A stretch of DNA of 64,000 nt from the sequence record NC_024142.2. One strand, given 5' to 3'. How positions within the stretch are numbered: position 1 is the stretch's first letter; each line of letters starts with the position of its first letter. The DNA comes from Escherichia phage Bp4. This document shows, piece after piece, positions 1 to 44,823 of this stretch. The notes below the pieces were generated by a model. The model was given only the letters and a program-made list of their open reading frames with translations. It had not been told where the DNA came from and ran no database searches. Both the position numbers and the translations under genes were made by a program.

Positions 1-268
1 CGTTCTCTGAATCCTTGCAGAATTCCTCGATACTTTTCTTACGCAGAGTCTCAGTCATAGCTGTTTCCTCTGCCAGTTTATTAACAAAGGTATGCATTTC
101 TAATTTAGTACGAATGGCTTGTTTCTCTGCCATAGTACTTACATATGAATTAAGCATACCTACTGCTTTAGTTGCTGTACCGAAGGTATCTGCAACAGTA
201 GTAGCAGCTGAGTTAACAGTACCAAGTAAAGTTCCTGCGGTCATACGTACAGTAGCTTGAGTAGTCAT
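1..268 (-). CDS. hypothetical protein, 3' end truncated by window edge
   Basis: Minus-strand frame opens with ATG at 268-266 (MTTQATVRMTAGTLLG...) and runs past position 1 without a stop; the plus ORF 15..260 is its antisense shadow. Confidence 0.35.
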   Translation of the reverse strand, partial: MTTQATVRMTAGTLLGTVNSAATTVADTFGTATKAVGMLNSYVSTMAEKQAIRTKLEMHTFVNKLAEETAMTETLRKKSIEEFCKDSEN

Positions 269-469
269 GATGATAGCTCCAATAGTTGATGATAGGACGA
301 CATGTCCATAACATGCGGAGCATGTGTAACGTGTAAGGTGGGGTAGGGTAGTGGCTACACCGTCAACATACCGGGGGGGATGGTTGAGTGTAAGGGTGTA
401 GCCCCAGCCACACCACTGTAGCCATACATAACTATGCTACTTTTCATATGCAAAAATATGATAGCTATC

Positions 470-796
470 CTACTTATAAGCAGTTAAATAGGAGGAAGGA
501 ATCTGGGAGAGGATGTAGTCATAGTAATAGCAATATGCTTCACTATTGGTAGAGTTTATAGGCATACCTATGTAGTCAAACACCCATAAACAGAAATGAT
601 TGAGTTCGTGGATGAGTGTATGTAAAGGTTCCTTGAAGATACCAATCAATACACGATTACCAGAGTAAGTAGTATACCCTTTACAACCTTCCAAGTCTGG
701 CTCATACCCTTTAAGTTTCTTGTACTTTTTAATGAAGGTATCCCGGTCGAGTACTACTTCTAACTGCACCGGATAGGGTGATGTGTTTAGTTTCAT
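470..796 (-). CDS. small HExxH-motif (zincin-like) protein; may be the 3' part of a frameshifted gene with 729..1004
   Basis: ORF contains HTLIHELNHF (HExxH); 68-nt overlap with upstream ORF 729..1004 in another frame. Confidence 0.45.
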   Translation of the reverse strand: MKLNTSPYPVQLEVVLDRDTFIKKYKKLKGYEPDLEGCKGYTTYSGNRVLIGIFKEPLHTLIHELNHFCLWVFDYIGMPINSTNSEAYCYYYDYILSQIPSSYLTAYK

Positions 797-1004
797 TGTC
801 TTTCCTTATAGATTGGGGTGTTATCCTCGAAGGATAGGATGTACTTGTCTGTATTGAGATGCCATGGACTGAATCTACCCTGCCAGGACATTGGTGTACC
901 TGGTTCAAGTAGATGTACTTCTGCTTTCTTATTGTGTAAGAAAAGCAATCCTTGTAGTTCATGCAAGGACTGTTCGTCTGGAACCAGGATAAGTATATCA
1001 GCAT
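729..1004 (-). CDS. hypothetical protein or 5' segment of the HExxH gene
   Basis: Only open minus-strand frame filling the gap between 796 and 1076; composition rather low-complexity. Confidence 0.25.
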   Translation of the reverse strand: MLIYLSWFQTNSPCMNYKDCFSYTIRKQKYIYLNQVHQCPGRVDSVHGISIQTSTSYPSRITPQSIRKDNETKHITLSGAVRSSTRPGYLH

Positions 1005-1075
1005 CTAGGTTAGCTACTTTTTATGGTGGGTGTATTCATCCCAAGGTATTTCTGAATAAATTTTACTGATAACCA

Positions 1076-1306
1076 TTAGCAGCTCTCGTCGCTAGATAAA
1101 TATGAGGTAGAAGGATACAGGGTAATTAGTCTACCTGTTAGGGTAGTAACTACCATAGGTTCACAAGAGGAGTAGATGTATACAACTACATTCTCTGGAA
1201 CTTCGATGGAAGTATCTATTTTAATAAAGGTAATAGGTACACCCAACATGAGGCAGGTTCCGATGAACTCATCTGCTTTTTCGCATTGTTCGTAGTACAT
1301 GGTCAT
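1076..1306 (-). CDS. small protein, paralog family member A
   Basis: Shares core motif ADEFIGTCLMLG with three downstream ORFs. Confidence 0.45.
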   Translation of the reverse strand: MTMYYEQCEKADEFIGTCLMLGVPITFIKIDTSIEVPENVVVYIYSSCEPMVVTTLTGRLITLYPSTSYLSSDESC

Positions 1307-1395
1307 AGGCGTGCTTATTCTAATCCAGTGAGATTTACCTACCCCAGATTAAGGGGACTGGTACTACGATAACTCAAACCATAGAAGCGCATACC

Positions 1396-1710
1396 TTACT
1401 TCCTTACATAGTAGTAACGGGATTCACCATCCTCATAGCGACAATCCCATTGGTAATCATCAGACACCATCATGTATGGGATAGGTTCCCCGGAGTTAAA
1501 GTTGGTATAGACAGATGGAGGAACAATACATACAACCTTACGGTCATTACCTGCTAAGAAGAGTTGACCCCTTACCTCATGGTAGTCCTCTAAAGTAGGA
1601 ACCAGGATTACTTGCTGGGGGTTGCTGTCCATGACTTCTTCTAAAGTGAAGTCTCCTGCATACATAGCCCCCCTTCCAGTAAAACTAGGGATGGTCATTA
1701 TGAATTTCAT
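1396..1710 (-). CDS. small protein, paralog family member B
   Basis: Core motif LEDYHEVRGQLFLAG; likely start at the internal Met (MTIPSF, about 1698). Confidence 0.45.
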   Translation of the reverse strand: MKFIMTIPSFTGRGAMYAGDFTLEEVMDSNPQQVILVPTLEDYHEVRGQLFLAGNDRKVVCIVPPSVYTNFNSGEPIPYMMVSDDYQWDCRYEDGESRYYYVRK

Positions 1711-2074
1711 GATTGGTTCTCCTTCCTTTAGGGATAGGTCTGAAGTAAATGGAAAGTGTTTTATTAAAGACGTTACGGGAAGCTATCAATTCCCAACCGG
1801 GTACTTTATAGAAGCGTATACCAGGGAAGAACTCTTTGAACCCGCCATAACGGGTGAGGTCATACACCTTTGGTTCGGTAAGTATCTCAGTATTGAGTTG
1901 TAGGTTTGATAAGAAAAGAGAGCCAACAATCTCATGGGACTCTTCACAGTTAGGTAAGAACACAGATTGCCAGGGAGCAATGAACTTACTTACTGTTTCT
2001 GGTTCCCCAAGTAGATAAGGTTCTTGCTTATGAAGTACTCCGGTAATATCAATATCAAAAGCGTAGATGCTCAT
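1685..2074 (-). CDS. small protein, paralog family member C
   Basis: Core motif CEESHEIVGSLFLSN. Confidence 0.45.
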   Translation of the reverse strand: MSIYAFDIDITGVLHKQEPYLLGEPETVSKFIAPWQSVFLPNCEESHEIVGSLFLSNLQLNTEILTEPKVYDLTRYGGFKEFFPGIRFYKVPGWELIASRNVFNKTLSIYFRPIPKGRRTNHEIHNDHP

Positions 2075-2273
2075 AATTGCATTCCTCCAGAAAAAGAAAT
2101 GGGGTAGAGCCTCTCGACTCTACCCTTACCGTTTTCAATCACGGGTCAGTTCATCACCCTAGATACATGTGTATCGTTAGCCTACTAGGTAGGAAAGGAG
2201 CCGGGCAACCCTGACTGTAGAAGTTATTAACTCTTTACGAGTACCGCCACTGTCTACTAGGCGGCATGACTAA

Positions 2274-2564
2274 TCACATCGTCACCGTCATCCGAACACT
2301 GTCTTTGCTTCGCCTGACGGAGACACTATGAGGTAATTTTGTGAAGAACACAATAGCTGAAGGGCGTTTTTCTAAAGAGTAAGTTTCTCTTGGTTCTAGG
2401 ATTTTAATGCCTGGACGATTCTCTAAAAGCATCATCCCAGCTAATTCATGGTAGGTATCTTCATCATGTGTGATGATAATATCATCTGAAAGGATACCTG
2501 CTTTGGTGTGGTCTATCTCTGCGTATTCATCTTTGGAGTCATGGACTCTCATATAGATTCTCAA
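2274..2564 (-). CDS. small protein, paralog family member D
   Basis: Core motif DEDTYHELAGMMLLEN. Confidence 0.45.
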   Translation of the reverse strand: MRIYMRVHDSKDEYAEIDHTKAGILSDDIIITHDEDTYHELAGMMLLENRPGIKILEPRETYSLEKRPSAIVFFTKLPHSVSVRRSKDSVRMTVTM

Positions 2565-2733
2565 AGGTTACTCCTTTTGGGAATAGGGTCATCGGAACAT
2601 TACATACTATTTAGTATCATGAACTTTTTCTATATCATGACTAAAGTGTAACTGTATGGTATCGTTTCTTCAAGGGTAACTCACCCCAAGAAAGAATCTT
2701 CTTTAATAGACATAACTTTGTAGCGAGATAAGT

Positions 2734-3423
2734 ATGAGTGAACTAACTAAGCAGCAGATTGTTAATGCCTTACCTGCTAACTTCAAAAACAGTGTGACCC
2801 AGGAGTTGGTAGACACGATCAACAACATAACCCAAGACCAACTGGTTGCTGAGTCTTTCCGTGAAAACTTTATCTCCTACTCTGGTGTAATGAAGGAAGG
2901 TAAGTTCAAGACACAGGACTACATGAATGCAGTTCAGTATGTGACTTATAAACACATGGGCTATTCAAATAAGGAAGCCTACTTCAAGACATTCCCTAAC
3001 CGACAAGCAGAACTTGTTGCACGAGGAACCAGCGAGAAAGATATTAGTGCTTATGTATCTGCATATCACAGAGGTAAGTTAGTTAACCTCATCATGGAAC
3101 AAAGTTTGGTTCCAGTGTGGATTGTGAACCAGGACAATTATCAGAAGGCAATCAATGTTCAGGTTGAACTGATGACTTCAGCAGCAAGTGAGAAGGTAAG
3201 ATGTGATGCAGCTAACTCTATCCTTACTCATTTGGCTAAACCAAAGGACCAGGTAACAAATATCAATCTGGATTTAAGAGAGAACTCTGGGTTAACTGAC
3301 CTCAAGGCAACACTTGCTGCATTAGCTGAACAACAAATCAATGCAATCAATAGTGGTGTACCCACCAAAGAGGTTGCTGGTTCTAAACTAGTACGTGCTG
3401 ATGAGGACATTACAGATGTCTGA
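2734..3423 (+). CDS. hypothetical protein, possibly terminase small subunit (position only)
   Basis: 229-aa ORF immediately upstream of and overlapping the large terminase start. Confidence 0.35.
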   Translation: MSELTKQQIVNALPANFKNSVTQELVDTINNITQDQLVAESFRENFISYSGVMKEGKFKTQDYMNAVQYVTYKHMGYSNKEAYFKTFPNRQAELVARGTSEKDISAYVSAYHRGKLVNLIMEQSLVPVWIVNQDNYQKAINVQVELMTSAASEKVRCDAANSILTHLAKPKDQVTNINLDLRENSGLTDLKATLAALAEQQINAINSGVPTKEVAGSKLVRADEDITDV

Positions 3424-5005
3424 GTTAATTAAACAGGAACTGGATGAATGGCTAGACCAGGTGGATTACTCCCACCTAAACTCTTCCAACTATGTTCCCA
3501 GTCAGTTTGCTCTTACCTTTGCCAACTTTATTAAGTTGGTTAATGGCAAAGAAGGTGAATCCAACAAAACACCCCCAGTTCACTTGAAGATGCTTGATAA
3601 GATGATTAGCCCGAACCAGTATGTAGTTAACCTGTGCTTCCGTGGTGCAGGTAAGACTGCTGTGTTTATGGAATACTTTACTTTGTTCCTGGCAGTGTTT
3701 GGTCACTTACCAAGTCTGGGTAAAGTAGAGGGAATGATTTACGTATCTGACTCAATGGATAACGGTGCTAAGTCTGCACGTAAGAACATTGAGTTTCGTT
3801 ATAAGAATAGTGAGTTCCTACAGCAATGGATACCTGAAGCTACTTTTACGGATAACCTACTGGAGTTCCGTAATGTAGAAGGGCATCGTCTTGGTGTTAA
3901 GCTGTTTGGTGCTAAGACAGGTCTTCGTGGTACGAAGATATATGGTAAGCGTCCAACACTCTGTGTACTAGATGACTTGATTAGTGATGGTGATGCTAAC
4001 TCCAAGACTAGCATGGAAGCTATTAAAGACACCGTTTATAAAGGTGTGAACCATGCTCTTGACCCAACTCGTCGTAAAGTAATCTTCAATGGTACTCCTT
4101 TTAATAAGGAAGACATTATCATTGAAGCAGTTGAGTCTGGTGCATGGGATGTCAACGTATGGCCTGTATGTGAGAAGTTCCCTTGTAGTAAAGAAGAATT
4201 TCAGGGTGCATGGGATGACCGTTTCTCTTACGACTACATTAAAGCCCAATATGACATGGCAGTTAAGACTGGTAAGTTGGCTGGCTTCTATCAGGAACTT
4301 ATGCTCCGTATTAGCTCTGAAGATGAGAGACTGGTTCAGGATAGTGAAATTAGATGGTATAGCAGACAGCAACTATTAAGGATGAAGTCCTGCTACAACT
4401 ATTATATTACAACTGACTTTGCTACATCGGAGAAACAGACCAGTGACTATAGTGTCATATCAGTTTGGGCTTATAGTTCTAATGGAGATTGGTTCTGGGT
4501 TGATGGTGTGGCTAATCGTCAGCTTATGGATAAAAACTTTGATGACCTGTTCCGTCTGGTTCAAGAATACCAACCACAAAACGTTGGTGTCGAAATCACA
4601 GGGCAGCAAGGTGGATTCATTTCGCTCCTTCAGAAAGAAATGATTAACCGTAATGTCTTCTTTAACTTTGCATCTTCTGAAGGTGGTAAGCCGGGTATAC
4701 GTCCTGTAACCTCTAAGCTGTCACGCTTTAACCTGGTAGTTCCATGGTTCAAAGCTGGTAAGATGTACTTCCCGGAAGAGTTGAGAGATTCAACTATTAT
4801 GGGTCTGTTCATGGGCCAGATTAAACTAGCTACCATTAATGGAATCAAAGGTAAGGATGACTGTATTGATACTATCTCCATGCTGGGTTATCTCAATCCT
4901 TGGAAACCACAAGCAGGTATGACTCTGGTGGATAACAAAGGTGACCCAATGTGGGATGATGAAGAAGAAGATAGTGTTAACCCACTTCGTTCATACATTG
5001 TGTGA
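3416..5005 (+). CDS. terL: terminase large subunit
   Basis: Walker A-like CFRGAGKTAV near N-terminus, ~530 aa, position at head of the structural module; ATG at 3416 (MSELIKQ). Confidence 0.85.
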   Translation: MSELIKQELDEWLDQVDYSHLNSSNYVPSQFALTFANFIKLVNGKEGESNKTPPVHLKMLDKMISPNQYVVNLCFRGAGKTAVFMEYFTLFLAVFGHLPSLGKVEGMIYVSDSMDNGAKSARKNIEFRYKNSEFLQQWIPEATFTDNLLEFRNVEGHRLGVKLFGAKTGLRGTKIYGKRPTLCVLDDLISDGDANSKTSMEAIKDTVYKGVNHALDPTRRKVIFNGTPFNKEDIIIEAVESGAWDVNVWPVCEKFPCSKEEFQGAWDDRFSYDYIKAQYDMAVKTGKLAGFYQELMLRISSEDERLVQDSEIRWYSRQQLLRMKSCYNYYITTDFATSEKQTSDYSVISVWAYSSNGDWFWVDGVANRQLMDKNFDDLFRLVQEYQPQNVGVEITGQQGGFISLLQKEMINRNVFFNFASSEGGKPGIRPVTSKLSRFNLVVPWFKAGKMYFPEELRDSTIMGLFMGQIKLATINGIKGKDDCIDTISMLGYLNPWKPQAGMTLVDNKGDPMWDDEEEDSVNPLRSYIV

Positions 5006-12579: not shown

Positions 12580-13066
12580 AGGTTGGCCTTATCTTCTGGT
12601 GGTGGTCCTAGGGGCCACCATTTACTTTTGGGGTAATTCCAATGGGCAGTCTACTGTTCAAAAGAAGTGGGATGATCAAAAGGTTGAAGATCAAAAGGCA
12701 ATGCAAAAACTACAGGACAAATACAATGCTCTCCAAAGAAACCATAGTTATGAAGTCGGGTTACTCACTTCCCGGTTGCAGACGGCTGAGAGTAATTACG
12801 CAAGCGAGCTTGCTCGCGTTAGCAGTGATTATGACAGCCGGATGCAACAGTCTGAAAGACGAGCATCGGTATATAAACGTCAAGCCGAAGCCGGAACCTT
12901 TGAGTGCAGAAGTCTTGCAAGCCATGCAGCCAGACTCGACAACAGTCTTGAAGAAGGCAGACGTTTGGTTGAAGAACTCCGGGCAACTGTTAGACTCCGT
13001 GACAGCCAACTAATTGAGTTGGGTAAACAGATTCAGGCTGATCGTAAACTTTTTGAACAGGAATAA
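12560..13066 (+). CDS. i-spanin (Rz-like)
   Basis: N-terminal TM ([14 protein letters not shown]) then coiled-coil; directly after the endolysin. Confidence 0.55.
12750..13013 (+). CDS. o-spanin (Rz1-like) embedded in the i-spanin gene, alternate frame
   Basis: Signal-like [12 protein letters not shown] with Cys lipobox-like site, then Pro-rich KPKPEP; fully nested within Rz. Confidence 0.4.
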   Translation: MKSGYSLPGCRRLRVITQASLLALAVIMTAGCNSLKDEHRYINVKPKPEPLSAEVLQAMQPDSTTVLKKADVWLKNSGQLLDSVTAN

Positions 13067-38610: not shown

Positions 38611-38811
38611 TCAAAGGATTCTAACAGAACCCTTCACGATATTAACTACTCTTTTTAATGCTTCTACTTCACCCTCTCTATACCAAGCATATGGTACTAA
38701 GATTTTGCAGCCTTCTGATTCAATGTGAAATGCTTTCTTTCCTTCAACGGGTTCTCCACCCATGAAAGAACTAACCTTTCCATTGAGCCAGTGAATAGTA
38801 AATTTGTTCAT
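38611..38811 (-). CDS. hypothetical small protein
   Basis: 66-aa ORF (MNKFTIHWLNGK…) with upstream GAGA RBS-like element. Confidence 0.45.
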   Translation of the reverse strand: MNKFTIHWLNGKVSSFMGGEPVEGKKAFHIESEGCKILVPYAWYREGEVEALKRVVNIVKGSVRIL

Positions 38812-39045
38812 ATTAGTCTCAGTTGAACCAATGGACTTCGGAGAGTATTAAAGTCCACTGGTTCGGTTGTTGTTGTTACTCTGGCGGCTTGTCACCACCG
38901 TGTTTACCACTGCATTTCCACAGGATAATGACAGTGATGATAAAAGCTATGTATGGAGCCGACACGTCTATAATCCTGACCAGTAGTAGCATTAGGACTA
39001 TAAACACTACCACACCTAGCAGCAGCTTCTGAGCCACCTACCAGA

Positions 39046-39486
39046 TTAACTACGTTTAAGGCCAGCGAACAGTGAAGGCTTAGTAGCAGGTTTCTCTGCT
39101 GGTTCTTCAGCCTTAGCCTCTTCCTGCACAACTTCTTCTTGTGCTTCTGGTTCAGATACTGCTTCTTCTTCAGGTTCCGGCGTAGAACTCTCGTTCTGAC
39201 CACCAGTAGAGGTCTGGGTTTCTTCTACCTTTACCTCTTCAACTACTTCTTCCGGCTCTGGTTCTACCGGACGATGTTTAGCTTCCTGTGGGTTCTTACG
39301 AGAACGACGAGTTTTCTTCTCTACTCCCACGGGTGGAGTATCTTCATGAACCTCTTCGTTGATACCAACGGAAGCTGTACCGTCTGCATTGATGACAATA
39401 TTGATGTCACCAGCAAGATTGATTTGATCATCGACATAAGCCTGTACAGCAGCTTCTACTTCGGACTGGTTCAAAATGATTTGCAT
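39046..39486 (-). CDS. acidic protein with Glu/Pro-rich tail
   Basis: C-terminal ~70 aa are E/P/V-rich (EPEPEEVVEEVKVEETQ…). Confidence 0.5.
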   Translation of the reverse strand: MQIILNQSEVEAAVQAYVDDQINLAGDINIVINADGTASVGINEEVHEDTPPVGVEKKTRRSRKNPQEAKHRPVEPEPEEVVEEVKVEETQTSTGGQNESSTPEPEEEAVSEPEAQEEVVQEEAKAEEPAEKPATKPSLFAGLKRS

Positions 39487-39487
39487 G

Positions 39488-40042
39488 TTACGCCTTTATT
39501 AAATTAAGGAGGTTTTGGAAAGCTGGGAGATTTACACCAGCATGGATTGCACCGATTGCATCAGCTAAGTGCTCATTCTTATTCAGAAGTTTGCCCTTCT
39601 TATCTGTGAGCCAGTTGGCTTCAGGATAGATGGCATGAGCAGCACGAATCATCGTGTCCTTAGATGCAGTTTTATCACCGACCAGTGCAAGTTTGTTTTC
39701 AATTGGGGATACTTCAAAGATTGGACAACCCAATGCACGAAATGCACCTATTAATCCTACGCATACGCCATAGGATTTCATACCGTTAGCAGACTGAGAG
39801 CCTACTGGTACTTCTACGAATACTGCTTTAGCAGACCGTAACCATTCCTCACAACCAAGAAACAAATCGTGAGCGGCTTGTATATCTTTGGAGTTGGTTC
39901 GAACTTGTTTGTTGTGGTCAACTTCAGTTTGAACCAGTTTAAGTTCGACCTGCTCGAAGACGCCGGACTCAATGTCCAGCATCCCACGAGCTAAACCCCA
40001 ATTGCGGAGACTAATGTCTGCACCGACAATTGGGATTTTCAT
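39488..40042 (-). CDS. RuvC-like Holliday junction resolvase
   Basis: N-terminal IVGADISLRNWGLA, FVEVP, C-terminal HLADAIGAIHAG, paralleling RuvC catalytic motifs. Confidence 0.7.
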   Translation of the reverse strand: MKIPIVGADISLRNWGLARGMLDIESGVFEQVELKLVQTEVDHNKQVRTNSKDIQAAHDLFLGCEEWLRSAKAVFVEVPVGSQSANGMKSYGVCVGLIGAFRALGCPIFEVSPIENKLALVGDKTASKDTMIRAAHAIYPEANWLTDKKGKLLNKNEHLADAIGAIHAGVNLPAFQNLLNLIKA

Positions 40043-40845
40043 TAACGTTTACCGAACAGTGATTTACCACTAGCAGGAGTAGTACCAGTGCCAGCACCTG
40101 CACCTGGTTTAGGAGGCAAGCCACCTTTACCATTACCACCAGCAGAACTCTTAGTCTTGTCACGAGTTTTGCCTTTGTTCTTTTCCAGCCATGCTGCATA
40201 GAATACAGCCAGTTCTGGGGTTAGTTCTTTTTCAGCCTTCTCTGCTTCCTGAGCCTCGACGACTGTGACCAGCAGTTCCGGGTGAAACACTTTCTGAATC
40301 TCGTTTACTTCACGAGTTTCGTCAGAGTCTACATAACCGTTGTCGCCTTTAACCTGCTTGTTTTCCAGAACTTTTTCCAGAGCGAAGGTAACAGTCTGGC
40401 CTACCAGGTCAACTGGAACCATGACAGATTTATTAACTTCTGCTTTAGCGTCGTAGTCGTAGACTTTAACAATCTTCTCTTCGAAGTCTGCTTCAGGCAG
40501 TTCAGTACCAGTAGCCATCAGCATCATGTCGTTAATGACAGTGTAGCCAGGCAGGAAGTACTCTTTACCATTTTTCTCGTAAGTCGGCTTGTTGCCTTTA
40601 GCATTACCAGAAGTGAAGTACACCTGAGCACGGAACTCGCCAGCAGGCACGCCATCAGAGTTTTTCAGGTCTTCAATAATTAACTGCATCCAGTCTGCAC
40701 CAGAATCAGCTTTGCCTACGTAAGCTACTTTTACAGTACCAGTGTAGATATCGGTTTCTTTTGCACCGAAGCCACCACCACCCAGAGAGTCTTTAGCAGC
40801 TTCAACGTTTTTGGTTTTTTCTTTCAGATTACTGAACAATGACAT
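40042..40845 (-). CDS. single-stranded DNA-binding protein (N4 SSB-like, by size and position)
   Basis: 267 aa with Gly-rich C-terminal tail, next to resolvase and ATPase. Confidence 0.45.
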   Translation of the reverse strand: MSLFSNLKEKTKNVEAAKDSLGGGGFGAKETDIYTGTVKVAYVGKADSGADWMQLIIEDLKNSDGVPAGEFRAQVYFTSGNAKGNKPTYEKNGKEYFLPGYTVINDMMLMATGTELPEADFEEKIVKVYDYDAKAEVNKSVMVPVDLVGQTVTFALEKVLENKQVKGDNGYVDSDETREVNEIQKVFHPELLVTVVEAQEAEKAEKELTPELAVFYAAWLEKNKGKTRDKTKSSAGGNGKGGLPPKPGAGAGTGTTPASGKSLFGKR

Positions 40846-40884
40846 ATGATTTTCCTAATAAGTGATTAACAACCAGACAAACGC

Positions 40885-41637
40885 TTAAGCGTAGTATTCA
40901 GCCAGGTGGTCTAAGAGTTTCTGGGCATCGTTATCAATGTAAGTCTCGGACTTATCGAACATACCCATAGGAGAACGAAGTCGTTTACCAACAGACTTCT
41001 TGGTTGGACGGGTCTGGAATACATGTTTATAGCCTAAATCACGTTCTTCCTCCGTAATTTCAAGCATCTTGTTTCCATACTTCTCCAGTTCTTTAATGTC
41101 TACACGTTCTGCGTAAACCACTGTAGAGAAGTAGGCTTCAAGCCCGTTATTCTTCAGAGAGCCTTTCACTGGGATGAACGTTTTCATCACACCAGCAGCT
41201 TCATCCAGTTCGTCTTTAGCATGAGCAGTAATGATTACTGGCTTACCAAACTTAACGACTTTTTGTTGCAGCAGTATCTTAAAGAACTGTGCAAAATCCC
41301 CCCATGCCTTTTGCGTGTTTGCAGAAGGCAGAACATACTGGGATTCCAGCATATCCATCATAAAAGTTGCTGAGTCAATGATGATACCATCAACATCATC
41401 TGCCATTTCTCCACCAGGAGATGCAACATCAAATGCTTCCCAGATTTGGTATGGGTCTTCGATGTTGTAGGTATTGAACTTGTTACGGAAAGGTAGACGT
41501 TTACCTGCCTCAGTGTTCAGATAGAGCCAGCGTTCCTGGTTCCTGATGTTACGCAGTGATGCTGATTTACCACTCGCTGAGAATCCTGCAATCAGGATTA
41601 GCTGAGTGTTCATATCATTGGGAATTACTTCGGACAT
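40885..41637 (-). CDS. P-loop ATPase (RecA/Sak4-like core)
   Basis: Walker A LILIAGFSASGKS and Walker B-like IIIDSATFMMD. Confidence 0.55.
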   Translation of the reverse strand: MSEVIPNDMNTQLILIAGFSASGKSASLRNIRNQERWLYLNTEAGKRLPFRNKFNTYNIEDPYQIWEAFDVASPGGEMADDVDGIIIDSATFMMDMLESQYVLPSANTQKAWGDFAQFFKILLQQKVVKFGKPVIITAHAKDELDEAAGVMKTFIPVKGSLKNNGLEAYFSTVVYAERVDIKELEKYGNKMLEITEEERDLGYKHVFQTRPTKKSVGKRLRSPMGMFDKSETYIDNDAQKLLDHLAEYYA

Positions 41638-41693
41638 TATTTTTCCTCATTTAATTTAGGAGTCCTTCAAACCAAAGAAAGACTCCTGTTTGC

Positions 41694-43586
41694 TTATTTG
41701 CCAGCGAAGCGTTTAGCCACGGTGACCATTACGGTTGCATTCAATTCATCATCTGGTAATGGATTAGCCAGTTTCTTATTGAATGAGTGGACGGCTTGCT
41801 GTACTTGGGCAAAATCCCAACCACTGTCAACCAATGCCAGTGCGTACTTAATCATTTGATTATTACGATTACCGGTAGCAATACGACTAGCGAACCAACG
41901 CTCCAGATTATCCAACGACTGTACTTCCTTCATCTGGTTCTGGAACTGCTCGTTCTTACTAGTACGAGGAATAAAGTCACGCACGTCCAACAGATTTGCT
42001 TCAAGATTGTAATGATAGGAACCAGTCTCACAGGACATCCATTTCTTGGCTCGCTGGTTAGCAGATTCATCCGTTTCGAACGGTAGCCAAGACATAACGT
42101 TATTCATAAACTCTTTGTATTCCTCAGTGTCGAGGTGTAACTCATAGTTCATTGGAATAATCAGTCGGAAGCGGTTCTCTTCATCAGAATGACGTTTAGT
42201 GGTATAGGTCATGAACTTATATTCCTTCATCAGTTCATGGCACGTATGCAGTGGTACTCCACCATCACAGTCAATAACAATCATGTTAAATCCTGGAATA
42301 ACGTTCTCTTCAGAACGATGTCCATTCTTCATGTGATGGTTTACCCAGTGCATACCGGGAGCTTGGGTTAATACATGCAACTGGTCGAACGGTACACGTT
42401 CACCAATGTAGTCATAAGCAAAGCTATCACTATATGCCACTATCATCTCATTGATGTCAGTTTCTTTCAGAGTCTCACCACGGAAGAACTCAATACCTTC
42501 ATTAAAAGTCTTCTTAATGATGATGTGCTGTTTGTAGCCCCATGCTGTAGCAAGAGTCATCATCTCATTACGAGCTGCATTGCCACTCTTATAGAATGGC
42601 AATGACTCCACCAAGTCAGCATGAGTTACTTCTTTACCTACAGAAGCAATGTATTTAGCCAGCTTCACATAAGCCTTCTCACGATTGAGGATTGTCTGGA
42701 ATGCTGCTCCAGATTCTTCTACAAGCAGAATTGCTTGTTTAAGGTGAGTCATCTCAATGAATGAACTCTGGTCAACAAACGCCAGTGCTCCTGCCAGTTT
42801 AAGTGCTTTGAAATAACGGTGGGAAATTTCAGCTTTACGAATTTCTTCGTGGTCAGCCATAGCTTCTGCTTGTTTCTCACAATCAATTTTGTAAGCAATC
42901 AGAGCAATACCCACTGCATCTTCCACAACCATCTTAAAACCAAACAGGTTTGGATCAGCCAGACTATGGAAATGGTTAGCCCACTTACCAAGAGTCTGTA
43001 CGTTATCTTGTTTAATCAAGTTACGGTAGATTTCTTCCGGGGTTAGTGTTGCATGTGCTCTTTTGTCTAAGTGACCAGTGGCAAACAGACAGCGACGTGC
43101 ATACCCTATATCAAGAAAGCCATAGAACTGGTCTTCAGTCTGACCACCATCCAGTAGCTTACTTGGTGTACCAAACAGCAGCAGGTTAGTTGGAGTTTTG
43201 CCATCCAATTCTTCACCACGAACGCTTTCAGCAGTATTCTTGGTTAGCTTCTGTTTTACTTTTCCCTGGTCATATAACTCCAGGAACAGGGTTAGTACAT
43301 CCATGTTAGCCAACAGGTTCGAACCAATTTCATCAATCTGAAGATTGATTGAACCACATCCAGCCATTAATAGTTTATGGCGTAGTTGTTTAACTGCTGG
43401 TGGAGTACCTGAGTCAAACGTAAACGGATATGCCCCTGCACGTTTATACTCTGCCTCAACTTTATCAAACTCTTCCTGCTGGTCAGTACCCTGCCGTGCA
43501 GAGCGTTCGTTAGCAATCTTCCATAGACGATCATTTGCAATGACGGGCATGGTGTCTTCCATAAAGCGTTTACGGAAGCCAGTCAT
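41694..43586 (-). CDS. primase-like replication protein (DxD motif)
   Basis: 630 aa, MIVIDCDGG resembles the hhhDhD primase motif; position in the replication module. Confidence 0.4.
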   Translation of the reverse strand: MTGFRKRFMEDTMPVIANDRLWKIANERSARQGTDQQEEFDKVEAEYKRAGAYPFTFDSGTPPAVKQLRHKLLMAGCGSINLQIDEIGSNLLANMDVLTLFLELYDQGKVKQKLTKNTAESVRGEELDGKTPTNLLLFGTPSKLLDGGQTEDQFYGFLDIGYARRCLFATGHLDKRAHATLTPEEIYRNLIKQDNVQTLGKWANHFHSLADPNLFGFKMVVEDAVGIALIAYKIDCEKQAEAMADHEEIRKAEISHRYFKALKLAGALAFVDQSSFIEMTHLKQAILLVEESGAAFQTILNREKAYVKLAKYIASVGKEVTHADLVESLPFYKSGNAARNEMMTLATAWGYKQHIIIKKTFNEGIEFFRGETLKETDINEMIVAYSDSFAYDYIGERVPFDQLHVLTQAPGMHWVNHHMKNGHRSEENVIPGFNMIVIDCDGGVPLHTCHELMKEYKFMTYTTKRHSDEENRFRLIIPMNYELHLDTEEYKEFMNNVMSWLPFETDESANQRAKKWMSCETGSYHYNLEANLLDVRDFIPRTSKNEQFQNQMKEVQSLDNLERWFASRIATGNRNNQMIKYALALVDSGWDFAQVQQAVHSFNKKLANPLPDDELNATVMVTVAKRFAGK

Positions 43587-43846
43587 GAACCCGTCTTCAA
43601 TGATATTACTGAGTGACCTTTACCGAAACCAGATGTAGCCAACGCTATAGCGTAGATGTTTACCGGCAGGTCACCACGATCTTTAGTTACGATGGTTGCA
43701 CCCATGCAGGATGCCATTTTAGCCAAGAAGTAGGCTACTTCGACACGGAAAAATCCCCGGTCATTATTCTGGGTTTTATTGCAGAGCACATCTACGATTT
43801 CTTCAATCGCCGGATGATGCACTACTCCGGTAAGGTCAATACTCAT
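43583..43846 (-). CDS. hypothetical small protein
   Basis: Start at MSIDLTG overlaps the upstream stop; end overlaps the next start. Confidence 0.3.
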   Translation of the reverse strand: MSIDLTGVVHHPAIEEIVDVLCNKTQNNDRGFFRVEVAYFLAKMASCMGATIVTKDRGDLPVNIYAIALATSGFGKGHSVISLKTGS

Positions 43847-44823
43847 GATGGAAAATATCTCTCTCTTTGTTTGCAAATGGACGCGACAGGGCAGTATAGA
43901 CAACGCTTAACCTGCCCCTCCACGACCTTGATAGCACCCTTGCCACCTTTTTCAGCCATGAAGATACGAGCAGATGCCATATCGTCAAATTTTTTGGTAC
44001 TTCTGGCTCCAGGTACATCTACCTTAGAAGCATCAGAGAAGTATTTGAACTGTGGCTCTGTTCGCCACAACTCCTCATCAGTACATTCAGGAATTTCCTC
44101 TTCTGGTGCATTCCAGTACTTCTCAATGAGGTGAATCTTCTCTTCTACCCAACGTTCAGTCTTCTCAACAGATAGCAACGGAATATCCTTATGCATAATA
44201 CGATTAGCAGGATAGTTTGGATTGCTATTAGCCATATGCTTCATGAAGTCAGTGAAGATGTAGTTAATACGGATTACATCCTCGGTAATGATGTCGTTGT
44301 GAATCCAACGGTACAAGCTGCCTTGCATCTTGTGTTCATCATCACGGGAACCAGCAACCCAGGAATAGGTTGAGGTAGACTTAAAGTCCTGCAACAGACC
44401 TTCTGTTACGATGTCGAACTTACCACCGATAGTCCAACCCTTAACTACCCTGGTTCCACGCTGTTCAATGTAGATTGGGATAAGGTCAGGGTTAGCATCA
44501 AAGTCTGCTTTGGTTGGGTTAATAACTACTGCATCAATTACTCGTTGAGGATAACCCAACTTCTTCAATGCAGTCTTATGACCCAGCTTCCAGGCTTTCT
44601 CGATAGAATCATGTAAACCAGTACCCATTGATGTGGAGACGAAATCCATAACATCAATTGACTGATCACTTAAATCTACACGATGCTTCATGACGATTTG
44701 CTTAATGGGCTTAAGCAATGTGGTAACAGACAGATACTTAGGGTTATCTACATAGTCATAATCATCCGTTACAAGCCATACAGCTAGTGCAAGACTAACG
44801 TCGTGTTTGTTGGTAAGTTTCAT
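43843..44823 (-). CDS. PD-(D/E)xK family nuclease with C-terminal Cys cluster
   Basis: GKFDIVTEGLLQDFK (D…E…K arrangement) and C-terminal CLYCPVASIC. Confidence 0.45.
   Translation of the reverse strand: MKLTNKHDVSLALAVWLVTDDYDYVDNPKYLSVTTLLKPIKQIVMKHRVDLSDQSIDVMDFVSTSMGTGLHDSIEKAWKLGHKTALKKLGYPQRVIDAVVINPTKADFDANPDLIPIYIEQRGTRVVKGWTIGGKFDIVTEGLLQDFKSTSTYSWVAGSRDDEHKMQGSLYRWIHNDIITEDVIRINYIFTDFMKHMANSNPNYPANRIMHKDIPLLSVEKTERWVEEKIHLIEKYWNAPEEEIPECTDEELWRTEPQFKYFSDASKVDVPGARSTKKFDDMASARIFMAEKGGKGAIKVVEGQVKRCLYCPVASICKQRERYFPS

What the first reader, a model, noticed from the sequence alone, without database searches (positions are those of the whole stretch)
1076..2564. Tandem array of four paralogous small proteins at the genome end
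Four consecutive minus-strand ORFs share a core block: ADEFIGTCLMLG, EDYHEVRGQLFLAG, EESHEIVGSLFLSN, DTYHELAGMMLLEN, each preceded by a hydrophobic beta-like stretch and followed by K/T-[IV]-[IL]. Tandem paralog expansion of small proteins in a terminal accessory region is typical of rapidly evolving host-interaction or anti-defence genes.
Basis: seen in the sequence. Interest (0 to 1): 0.65.

Follow-up and report, generated by a model that had tools for sequence, protein, structure and literature searches.

The report
Phage paralog gene array with RNA
The cluster of related small genes at the end of this N4-like phage genome is real, though its membership differs from the first description. 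It belongs to an uncharacterised protein family found only in N4-like phages, and it encloses a strongly conserved pseudoknotted RNA that matches no Rfam family.

Summary
The window is an N4-like coliphage (Gamaleyavirus, 99.9% identical to phage PD38). The four ORFs exist, but the paralog set is not the one first described.

- **Clear homologs:** ORFs B (1396-1710), C (1685-2074) and D (2274-2564). Shuffle z-scores are 3-10 and HHalign probabilities 74-94% through a hub subfamily.
- **Missed copy:** F (793-1076) is a fourth copy, inactivated by a 1-nt deletion.
- **ORF A:** this is the 3' remnant of a separate 105-aa gene (1076-1392), also frameshifted. Its membership is plausible but unproven (HHalign 2-67%, and the structure model failed).
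- **Orthologs:** D matches N4 gp70 and C matches N4 gp71.
- **Distribution:** the family occurs only in Schitoviridae. It has no Pfam, NCBIfam, PADLOC or PDB relative and a confident but orphan alpha+beta fold.
- **Evolution:** copy number varies, dN/dS is about 0.2-0.3 against 0.03 for the neighbouring gene, and copies are pseudogenised.

Function is unknown. I infer non-enzymatic binding proteins with an accessory role.

The 199-nt D-C spacer is more conserved than its flanking genes. It encodes a pseudoknotted RNA with strong covariation, followed by an intrinsic terminator. A covariance model finds it in 38 further loci, and Rfam 15 has no match.

The parts
2274..2564 (-). Gene D. It is a 96-aa ortholog of N4 gp70 (phrog_7213) with a TTG start preceded by AAGGAG. 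It is the first gene of the block and is divergent from the TerS-like gene at 2734-3423.
   Evidence: The D-family HMM hits N4 gp70 at 78 bits. HHalign D-F is 94%. The AF2 model has pLDDT 85 and pTM 0.72. tblastn finds it in 92 of 50,697 phage genomes, all N4-like.
2145..2265 (-). Core of a conserved pseudoknotted RNA, starting 9 nt after the stop codon of D. It comprises hairpin H1 (GCCGCC/GGCGGU), variable hairpin H2 and single-stranded UAAUAAC. The linker UCUAC pairs with the H1 loop GUAGA, forming the pseudoknot. A long-range helix P3a (GUCAG/CUGAC) plus P3b carries an apical ACUCCUU.
   Evidence: The spacer is 95% identical among relatives, against 87% and 83% for the flanking genes. Covariation was measured. 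Covariance model R1 gives one hit in the 64-kb window at 115 bits, plus 38 other loci in that search, all on the same strand relative to TerS, and 4 reference genomes. Rfam has no match.
2102..2125 (-). Intrinsic-terminator hairpin (10-bp stem) followed by CAUUUCUUUUU. It lies immediately upstream of the ribosome-binding site of gene C (GGAGG).
   Evidence: Terminator scan. The hairpin is conserved in all Gamaleyavirus spacers, with analogous terminators in N4 and KP8; JWAlpha has an annotated one. A terminator follows the RNA within 50 nt in 16 of 29 distinct instances.
1685..2074 (-). Gene C. It is a 129-aa ortholog of N4 gp71 (phrog_9160).
   Evidence: The C-family HMM hits N4 gp71 at 28 bits. 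B-C z=9.6. HHalign B-C is 74%.
1396..1710 (-). Gene B, a 104-aa paralog (phrog_11661). It overlaps the 3' end of C by 26 nt.
   Evidence: The wide database search returns more than 100 B-family clusters, none with a Pfam domain.
1076..1392 (-). Gene A (phrog_12099), 105 aa when intact. Here a 1-nt deletion in the G-run at 1342-1345 disrupts it, giving a stop at 1339-1341. Membership of the family is possible but unproven.
   Evidence: The DNA alignment to the intact genes in PD205 and others shows the deletion, which Uz-1 shares. The PHROG hit covers only profile positions 31-105 of 106. The structure model failed.
793..1076 (-). Gene F (phrog_16338), 94 aa when intact and a clear family member. 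Its ATG overlaps the stop codon of A. A 1-nt deletion at the A-run 1018-1022 disrupts it here, giving a stop at 1014-1016.
   Evidence: D-F z=10.6 and B-F z=8.2.
470..796 (-). Gene E (phrog_1365). It is a 108-aa protein unrelated to the family, with a conserved HELNH (HExxH) motif, and is the last gene of the block. Its ATG overlaps the stop codon of F.
   Evidence: It shows no similarity to the family. It is conserved inside the arrays of KP8 (gp065) and of the metagenomic contig L020. Pfam, NCBIfam and PADLOC give no match.
2565..2733 (.). Divergent intergenic region between D and the TerS-like gene. It presumably holds the promoters for both directions, but these were not identified.
   Evidence: Gene layout. 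No sigma-70-like site was found here.

Best explanation
**What it is (shown).** Window 470-2564 (minus strand) is the right-end gene block of an N4-like phage. It holds a Schitoviridae-specific multigene family, here called N4 gp70/gp71-like.
- The proteins are small (about 90-130 aa), soluble and mostly acidic.
- They share one alpha+beta domain. A hydrophobic strand leads into a single helix carrying the [DE]xx[H][E]hxGxh[FL]Lx[NG] motif, followed by a second strand ending in EP and then a beta-meander.
- This phage has three intact copies (D, C, B), one frameshifted copy (F) and one frameshifted gene (A) that may be a very divergent copy.
- One unrelated HExxH gene (E) closes the block.
- The genes are co-oriented with the early and middle genes and divergent from the late terminase operon.
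- C-B-A-F-E are packed with overlapping start and stop codons.
- A conserved pseudoknotted RNA ending in an intrinsic terminator separates D from the rest.

**How it most likely works (inferred).** The proteins are non-enzymatic binding modules made inside the infected cell. They act on host or competing-phage factors. Duplication and divergence supply different target specificities, and individual copies are dispensable in a given host. I infer that D is transcribed together with the RNA as its 3' extension. I also infer that the terminator, and possibly the RNA fold, sets how much transcription continues into the downstream paralogs.
For: **Family and paralogy:**

**Restriction to N4-like phages.**
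- Only 20 cluster representatives out of 1.84 billion proteins reach E<=1e-3.
- The wide search returns 258 clusters, almost all from contigs of about 70 kb.
- D homologs occur in 92 of 50,697 phage genomes, all in Escherichia/Shigella, Klebsiella, Achromobacter or Pseudomonas N4-like phages.
- Every significant BFVD structural match is an uncharacterised small protein from a Schitoviridae phage, with several per genome.

**Real coding genes with a relaxed, accessory character.**
- dN/dS is 0.17-0.30, against 0.03 for the TerS-like gene.
- Copy number varies between relatives.
- Two frameshifted copies are shared with a second isolate.

**Non-enzymatic.**
- The His and Glu of the motif are replaced in many members (YNETRGQ, LDYIRG, FHYISG, ADSTRG), while Gly and the hydrophobic pattern persist.
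- No catalytic-family match appears in Pfam, NCBIfam or PDB.

**Soluble and cytoplasmic.** There are no hydrophobic segments, and pI is mostly 4.7-6.2.

**Fold.** The D model is confident and has one helix on one face of the sheet only. I read the uncovered face as a likely interaction or oligomerisation surface; this is inference from the secondary-structure summary.

**RNA plus terminator between gene 1 and gene 2.** Searches show it conserved in N4, KP8, JWAlpha and inbricus at the same position.

**Timing by analogy.** In the N4-like phage LUZ7, mid-infection transcripts from the early/middle strand cover the right-end small-ORF block (PMC9163698).
Against: - There is no direct functional evidence of any kind and no target is known. 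No anti-defence library was available to search; PADLOC covers defence systems only.
- D/gp70 is conserved in position across two subfamilies. This fits a phage-internal role at least as well as a host-directed one.
- From my own knowledge of N4, not tested here: the right genome end enters the cell last. Products of this block therefore cannot act at the very start of infection, when many anti-restriction proteins are needed.
- The promoters and the transcript ends were not determined.
- The RNA also occurs in distant phages whose flanking ORFs are not recognisable family members. Its role may therefore be independent of the array.
Confidence: 0.45

Rival explanations
1. Phage-internal role at the genome end. 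The gp70/71-like proteins would bind phage DNA, RNA or replication/packaging proteins, for example in end protection, concatemer processing or regulation of the neighbouring terminase/late operon. They would not target host factors.
For: - The block always abuts the TerS-like/TerL genes and the physical right end, in four genera of two subfamilies.
- The gp70-like gene is the most conserved member: JWDelta TM-score 0.85 and 92 genomes.
- The LUZ7 authors suggested a replication-related role for the mid-transcribed right-end ORFans.
Against: - The proteins are mostly acidic (pI 4.7-6.2), which does not favour direct nucleic-acid binding.
- Copy number is highly variable and copies are pseudogenised, which is atypical of core replication or packaging factors.
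- No helicase motifs and no Pfam Helicase_C match were found.
Confidence: 0.2
2. The proteins are small enzymes whose conserved His-Glu, together with the preceding acidic residues, forms a catalytic or metal-binding site.
For: In the 95-sequence superfamily alignment H and E are the commonest residues at their columns (86 and 83 of 95), preceded by acidic positions.
Against: - H and/or E are substituted in bona fide members, including N4 gp70 (FHYISG), N4 gp71 (THALLG), the G8 subfamily (ADSTRG) and several representatives (YNETRGQ, YNFAQG, LDYIRG).
- No enzyme family matches by sequence or fold.
Confidence: 0.05
3. The conserved functional unit of this locus is the RNA, not the proteins. The pseudoknotted RNA would be a trans-acting small RNA, or a 3'-UTR-derived RNA, with its own role in infection. 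The paralog genes would merely be neighbours.
For: - The RNA is more conserved than its flanking genes.
- It is found in 38 further loci, many from very distant metagenomic Schitoviridae whose flanking ORFs are not recognisable family members.
- It is often followed within 2-6 nt by an intrinsic terminator, as in stand-alone sRNAs.
- Abundant small non-coding RNAs have been seen in another Schitoviridae phage (LUZ7).
Against: - In all five characterised genera it lies exactly between the gp70-like and gp71-like genes. In at least L049 and L099 weak family members flank it.
- It starts only 9 nt after the stop codon of D, leaving no room for its own promoter outside the coding sequence.
- The model does not hit LUZ7, so the LUZ7 sRNAs are not evidence for this element.
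- This rival is compatible with the protein family being functional as well.
Confidence: 0.25
4. The block is decaying, functionless filler: remnants of old duplications being lost.
For: Two of the six genes are frameshifted in this phage and in Uz-1. Gene content varies among close relatives.
Against: - dN/dS is well below 1 for every subfamily.
- Orthologs are retained from E. coli phages to Achromobacter and Pseudomonas phages.
- Intact copies are present in most relatives.
Confidence: 0.05

Closest known systems
Escherichia phage N4 gp70 (YP_950548) and gp71 (YP_950549)
   Same: They are direct orthologs of D and C. They occupy the same position (last 1.1 kb of the genome, divergent from gp69/gp68) and have the same roughly 200-nt structured spacer between them.
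   Different: N4 has only these two copies plus a 42-aa gp72, whereas this phage has 4-5. The record annotates neither N4 protein with a function, and I found no functional study.
PHROG families phrog_7213, phrog_9160, phrog_11661, phrog_16338 (all 'unknown function'), and phrog_12099 for gene A
   Same: Each window gene matches one of these families at E of 1e-27 to 1e-63.
   Different: PHROGs keeps them as separate families. The analysis here links the first four, plus a further local subfamily G8, into one superfamily. phrog_12099 remains only tentatively linked.
Right-end small-ORF cluster of Pseudomonas phage LUZ7 (gp87-gp115)
   Same: Position and orientation are the same: it starts next to the N4 gp69-like gene and runs to the genome end. 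It likewise consists of many tiny genes of unknown function. Mid-infection transcripts cover it.
   Different: The LUZ7 ORFs are 40-75 aa and show no detectable similarity to the gp70/71 family. The RNA model does not hit LUZ7.
RecA-like lobe 2 of SF2 helicases (e.g. Prp28 5dtu, Hef 1wp9)
H-type pseudoknot cis-regulatory RNAs followed by a terminator (e.g. preQ1-type riboswitches; the put antitermination RNAs of phage HK022). This comparison is from my own knowledge.
   Same: The element has a compact pseudoknot with an A-rich connecting loop, invariant single-stranded bases and an intrinsic terminator directly downstream, and it sits upstream of a gene block.
   Different: It matches no Rfam family. 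It has an additional long-range helix with a variable apical domain. It follows a coding gene rather than a promoter. No ligand, antiterminator alternative or polymerase interaction is known or was tested.

Membership tests
N4 gp70/gp71-like superfamily (defined here; PHROGs 7213/9160/11661/16338) | Significant profile match over the core strand-helix-strand block (hhh[VT]P..E..HEh.G.h[FL]L.[NG]....h.h.EP) | tested here: met
   D, C, B and the F remnant score 125, 94, 126 and 73 bits against the superfamily HMM and are the only hits in the 64-kb window.
   Shuffle z <= 2.3. HHalign gives 4%, 1.7% and 67% depending on the target alignment, always in the same register. It gives 15% against the G8 subfamily, which itself joins at 86%. 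The AF2 model is unusable at pLDDT 40.
N4 gp70/gp71-like superfamily (defined here) | The same profile match, applied to gene E (470-796) | tested here: not met
   z is about 0 against all copies and HHalign probability is 0.2%. E is a different family (phrog_1365) with an HExxH motif.
N4 gp70/gp71-like superfamily (defined here) | Location in a co-oriented block between the TerS-like gene and the right genome end of a Schitoviridae genome | tested here: met
   Window layout; N4; KP8, JWAlpha and inbricus; 16 Gamaleyavirus loci.
SF2 helicase C-terminal RecA-like domain | Helicase motifs IV-VI, a Pfam Helicase_C match and strong structural similarity | tested here: not met
Known anti-phage defence proteins / known anti-defence proteins | Sequence match to a curated model | tested here: not met
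   PADLOC-DB gives no hit for B, C, D, E, an intact A homolog or an intact F homolog. No dedicated anti-defence library was available, so the anti-defence half was not testable with these tools.
Any Rfam 15 RNA family (riboswitches, ribozymes, sRNAs, leaders) | Covariance-model match | tested here: not met
   Nothing at E<=1 over the element in the window or in seven diverse loci.
Terminator-coupled riboswitch / attenuator (the kind of element the RNA works like) | A conserved structured domain with covarying helices and invariant unpaired bases | tested here: met
   With 29 distinct sequences, 94.6% of cells are paired, 12 of 15 pairs have compensatory changes, and covariation is 0.62 against 0.19 in shuffles (0/500) and <=0.07 with slid partners. 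The pseudoknot pairs, which were not in the model, give 94.4% paired and 0.63 against 0.30.
Terminator-coupled riboswitch / attenuator | An intrinsic terminator immediately downstream, followed by regulated genes | tested here: met
   Window 2125-2102. 16 of 29 distinct instances pass a strict heuristic. JWAlpha has an annotated terminator.
Terminator-coupled riboswitch / attenuator | A mutually exclusive antiterminator pairing, and a ligand or factor that shifts it | not tested
   No convincing alternative pairing was established. Ligand binding cannot be tested with these tools.

The most novel reading that the evidence does not exclude
The pseudoknotted RNA between the first and second paralog would be a new class of phage cis-regulatory RNA, of the riboswitch or antiterminator type. 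It would sense a cellular or phage signal and gate read-through of the terminator into the accessory paralog array. The array itself would encode a new fold of host-takeover or counter-defence binders. Together they would form a conditionally expressed accessory cassette common to N4-like phages.
Probability: 0.2. Interest if true: 0.85.

Novelty: new variant of a known kind. Interest (0 to 1): 0.55.

Why it matters
N4-like phages (Schitoviridae) are abundant, are used in phage therapy, and serve as a classic model for transcription. Their right-end genes have never been assigned a function.

Four or more separate 'hypothetical protein' families turn out to be one expanding superfamily with an orphan fold. 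That gives a defined target for host-range and counter-defence genetics.

The RNA may matter more. It is a strongly covarying pseudoknotted element conserved from E. coli phages to Achromobacter and Pseudomonas phages and to environmental Schitoviridae. It matches no Rfam family and is not mentioned in the papers I could search. It is a concrete candidate for a new functional RNA class in phages. Transcript mapping and compensatory mutagenesis in N4 can test it directly.

Tried and rejected
**Searches for a known relative, all negative.**
- Pfam, NCBIfam and PADLOC gave nothing, and PHROGs gave only 'unknown function' families.
- The PDB profile search gave one chance-level hit at E=0.24. Foldseek against the PDB gave best E=0.62.

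**Gene A.** I attempted a structure prediction of an intact homolog to settle membership. The model failed at pLDDT 40, so no fold search was run on it.

**Technical dead end.** I anchored on the TerS-like gene instead.

**Hypotheses rejected.**
- *One frameshifted larger gene:* the ORFs are separate and conserved as such.
- *tRNA or a known RNA in the spacer:* none found.
- *The pseudoknot 9 nt after the UGA of D stimulates stop-codon read-through or frameshifting:* N4 has TGA immediately followed by in-frame TAA, the distance to the upstream ORF varies from -9 to more than 200 nt, and there is no slippery site.
- *LUZ7 sRNA1-3 are the same element:* the model gives no hit in LUZ7 at E<=10.
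- *The LUZ7 right-end ORFans are the same protein family:* no hit.

**Literature.** The papers found use gp70/gp71 numbering for other phages. The G7C-set comparative preprint and the enterobacteriophage accessory-gene screen do not cover these genes.

**Promoters.** No sigma-70-like promoter was found upstream of D. N4-type hairpin or middle promoters could not be assessed reliably.
Full report
**Identity of the window.** Megablast places the first 6 kb in the N4-like genus Gamaleyavirus (Schitoviridae). It is 99.9% identical to Escherichia phage PD38 and 90-96% identical to G7C/ECBP1-type phages. The finding lies in a block of minus-strand ORFs (470-2564) that diverges from the TerS-like gene (2734-3423) and the large terminase gene (3395-5005). 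In the linear N4 record the equivalent genes gp70-gp72 fill the last 1.1 kb, so 'genome end' is correct.

**Checking the observation.** The four ORFs exist.
- On the window's own sequences, Smith-Waterman scores against 2000 shuffles give B-C z=9.6, B-D 3.1 and C-D 3.0.
- ORF A is at chance against everything (z <= 2.3).
- PHROG cross-hits and the raw sequence revealed a further copy, F. Its frame reads ...ADILILVPDEQSLHELQGLLFLHNKKAEVHLLEP. It is the best-connected member: D-F z=10.6, B-F 8.2, C-F 5.0.
- With subfamily alignments from 18 related loci, HHalign gives D-F 94%, B-F 93% and B-C 74%. Another subfamily, G8, is absent from this phage and joins at 86%.
- In this phage F is inactivated by a 1-nt deletion (AAAGAA to AAAAA at 1018-1022). 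Intact relatives encode 94 aa starting at an ATG that overlaps the stop codon of A.
A G5-to-G4 deletion at 1342-1345 breaks it.
- The independently sequenced phage Uz-1 shares both deletions, so they are real.
- Relatedness of A to the family remains open. An AlphaFold model of an intact homolog failed at pLDDT 40.
- Gene E (470-796) is unrelated and carries an HExxH motif.
- The ORFs are not pieces of one larger gene. Each is conserved as a separate ORF in relatives.

**What the family is.**
- D is the ortholog of N4 gp70 (78 bits) and C of N4 gp71 (28 bits).
- A profile search of 5.8 billion proteins returned 258 clusters. None has a Pfam domain, and almost all come from contigs of about 70 kb.
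- An exhaustive HMMER scan of 1.84 billion cluster representatives found only 20 at E<=1e-3, all 54-132 aa.
- tblastn finds D homologs in 92 of 50,697 phage genomes. All are N4-like phages of Escherichia/Shigella, Klebsiella, Achromobacter or Pseudomonas.
- Arrays recur in other phages. KP8 has five members plus an E-type gene, JWAlpha at least three and inbricus two. A metagenomic contig has five in tandem, and a divergent IMG/VR phage has three or four.
- No other copy exists elsewhere in the 64-kb window.

**Structure.** AlphaFold2 on D with a 57-sequence alignment gives pLDDT 85 and pTM 0.72. The order of elements is a beta-hairpin, strand 3, one helix (residues 35-47, carrying the HE..G..LL motif), then five strands.
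- Against BFVD, every significant hit is an uncharacterised small protein from a Schitoviridae phage. JWDelta reaches TM-score 0.85, and KP8 contributes four proteins.
- Against the PDB, Foldseek finds nothing (best E=0.62).
- A PDB sequence-profile search is empty.
- The fold is effectively an orphan.

**Evolutionary behaviour.**
- dN/dS is 0.17-0.30 for the block, against 0.03 for the adjacent TerS-like gene, and dS is also higher.
- D-C-B-A are present in all 16 Gamaleyavirus loci examined. F, G8 and E come and go.
- The His and Glu of the motif are frequently substituted, while Gly and the hydrophobic periodicity persist. This argues against catalysis.
- The proteins have no transmembrane segment and are mostly acidic.

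**Mechanism.**
- *Shown:* this is a phage-family-specific, duplicating, fast-evolving, partly dispensable set of small soluble single-domain proteins. They are co-oriented with the early and middle genes and tightly packed.
- *Inferred:* they are non-enzymatic binders acting in the infected cell on host or competitor targets, with the paralogs diversified for specificity.
- *Main rival:* a phage-internal role at the genome end or in replication and packaging. The conserved position of gp70 next to the terminase genes in two subfamilies favours this.
- *Missing evidence:* I found no functional evidence. In LUZ7 an analogous right-end block is transcribed at mid-infection, but those ORFs are not homologous.

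**An embedded conserved RNA.** The 199-nt D-C spacer (2075-2273) is 95% identical among relatives, against 87% and 83% for its flanking genes. It folds better than shuffled sequence (z=-3.1). It ends in an intrinsic terminator (2125-2102) just before the ribosome-binding site of C. N4, KP8, JWAlpha and inbricus have a homologous spacer at the same place.

The consensus architecture, 5' to 3', is:
- hairpin H1;
- an optional variable hairpin H2;
- single-stranded (U)AAUAAC;
- a 5-nt linker that pairs with the H1 loop, forming an H-type pseudoknot;
- a long-range helix P3a/P3b with an apical ACUCCUU, whose 3' strand is preceded by (U)GA;
- a terminator.

Evidence for this architecture:
- On a MAFFT alignment of 14 representatives, with a structure I named by eye, 92.5% of cells pair (31-58% when partners are slid). 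Eight of 15 pairs show compensatory changes. The covariation score is 0.43 against 0.23 in shuffles (0/500).
- A covariance model built from that alignment finds one hit in the 64-kb window (2145-2265, 115 bits) and hits in 38 other loci. All are on the same strand relative to TerS and upstream of it, and many come from distant environmental Schitoviridae.
- On that alignment, 12 of 15 pairs are compensatory and covariation is 0.62 against 0.19 in shuffles.
- The pseudoknot pairs were not in the model. They are 94.4% paired, with 4 of 5 compensatory and covariation 0.63 against 0.30. This is a check independent of the fitted structure.
- Rfam 15 has no match, and I found no literature on the element.
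- A terminator follows within 50 nt in at least 16 of 29 distinct instances.
- Flanking ORFs in the distant loci are mostly not recognisable family members, although L049 and L099 are weak ones.
- LUZ7 is not hit.
- The RNA starts 9 nt after the stop codon of D. It is therefore probably transcribed as the 3' extension of D.

The function of the RNA is unknown. Candidates are a read-through gate for the downstream paralogs, a 3'-UTR-derived sRNA and an mRNA-stabilising element. I considered recoding and rejected it, because N4 has TGA followed immediately by in-frame TAA.

**Verdict.** The reading as a tandem paralog expansion in an accessory region is supported. The anti-defence idea is untested. 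The protein array is a new superfamily grouping of already-annotated hypothetical proteins. The embedded RNA is the more novel element.

Noticed in passing
window 2075-2273 (minus strand); core 2145-2265; terminator 2102-2125: The D-C spacer encodes a pseudoknotted structured RNA followed by an intrinsic terminator. It is more conserved than its flanking genes and has strong covariation in H1, the pseudoknot and helix P3. A covariance model finds it in 38 other Schitoviridae loci, always on the same strand upstream of TerS. Rfam 15 has no match.
   Followed up: yes
window 1342-1345 and 1018-1022 (minus-strand genes A and F): Two single-base deletions in homopolymer-type runs (G5 to G4; AAAGAA to AAAAA) inactivate two adjacent genes of the block. 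Phage Uz-1 shares both, while PD205, ECBP1 and others are intact. These are real lineage-specific pseudogenisations rather than sequencing errors.
   Followed up: yes
window 470-796 (minus strand): Gene E is a 108-aa protein with a conserved HELNHFCLWVFDYIGMP.NS.NSEAYCYYYDY block containing an HExxH motif. It is unrelated to the paralog family but embedded in the same array in this phage, in Klebsiella phage KP8 (gp065) and in a metagenomic contig. Pfam, NCBIfam and PADLOC give no match, and phrog_1365 has unknown function. It may be a minimal zincin-like protein.
   Followed up: partly
C-termini of E (window 470-490) and of F2-type, A-type (L014) and G8-type (L004) genes in related loci: Unrelated genes in the array end with the same peptide...(P)SYLTAYK (N4 gp71 ends ...KIPAYK). 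This suggests a conserved junction sequence at which gene modules are swapped by recombination.
   Followed up: no
window 1-3000: Only one sigma-70-like promoter match occurs in 3 kb, against 6.8 +/- 2.6 expected from shuffles, and none lies in the divergent region 2565-2733. This fits a phage that relies largely on its own RNA polymerases, so the promoters of this block remain unidentified.
   Followed up: no
proteins P0141, P0210, P0291 (database hits): Near-identical copies of D and of gene A are annotated as Enterococcus faecium proteins on a 2.76-Mb contig. An N4-like coliphage block in an Enterococcus chromosome assembly looks like contamination or a chimeric assembly.
   Followed up: no
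L103 (LUZ7) 38699-44346; and 12645-13042: LUZ7 has 29 tiny ORFs at the position equivalent to the array, but they are not homologous to it. Its published sRNA hotspot (orf69-orf70) is a different locus, and the RNA model does not match it.
   Followed up: yes
window 1396-1785 region; relatives L001, L002, L004, L009, L013: In several relatives the B reading frame is open for about 25 codons upstream of the conserved MKFIM start (125-129-aa ORFs), overlapping the 3' end of C. Annotated starts differ between records. The conserved MKF start with its GGAGA ribosome-binding site is the likely true start.
   Followed up: no
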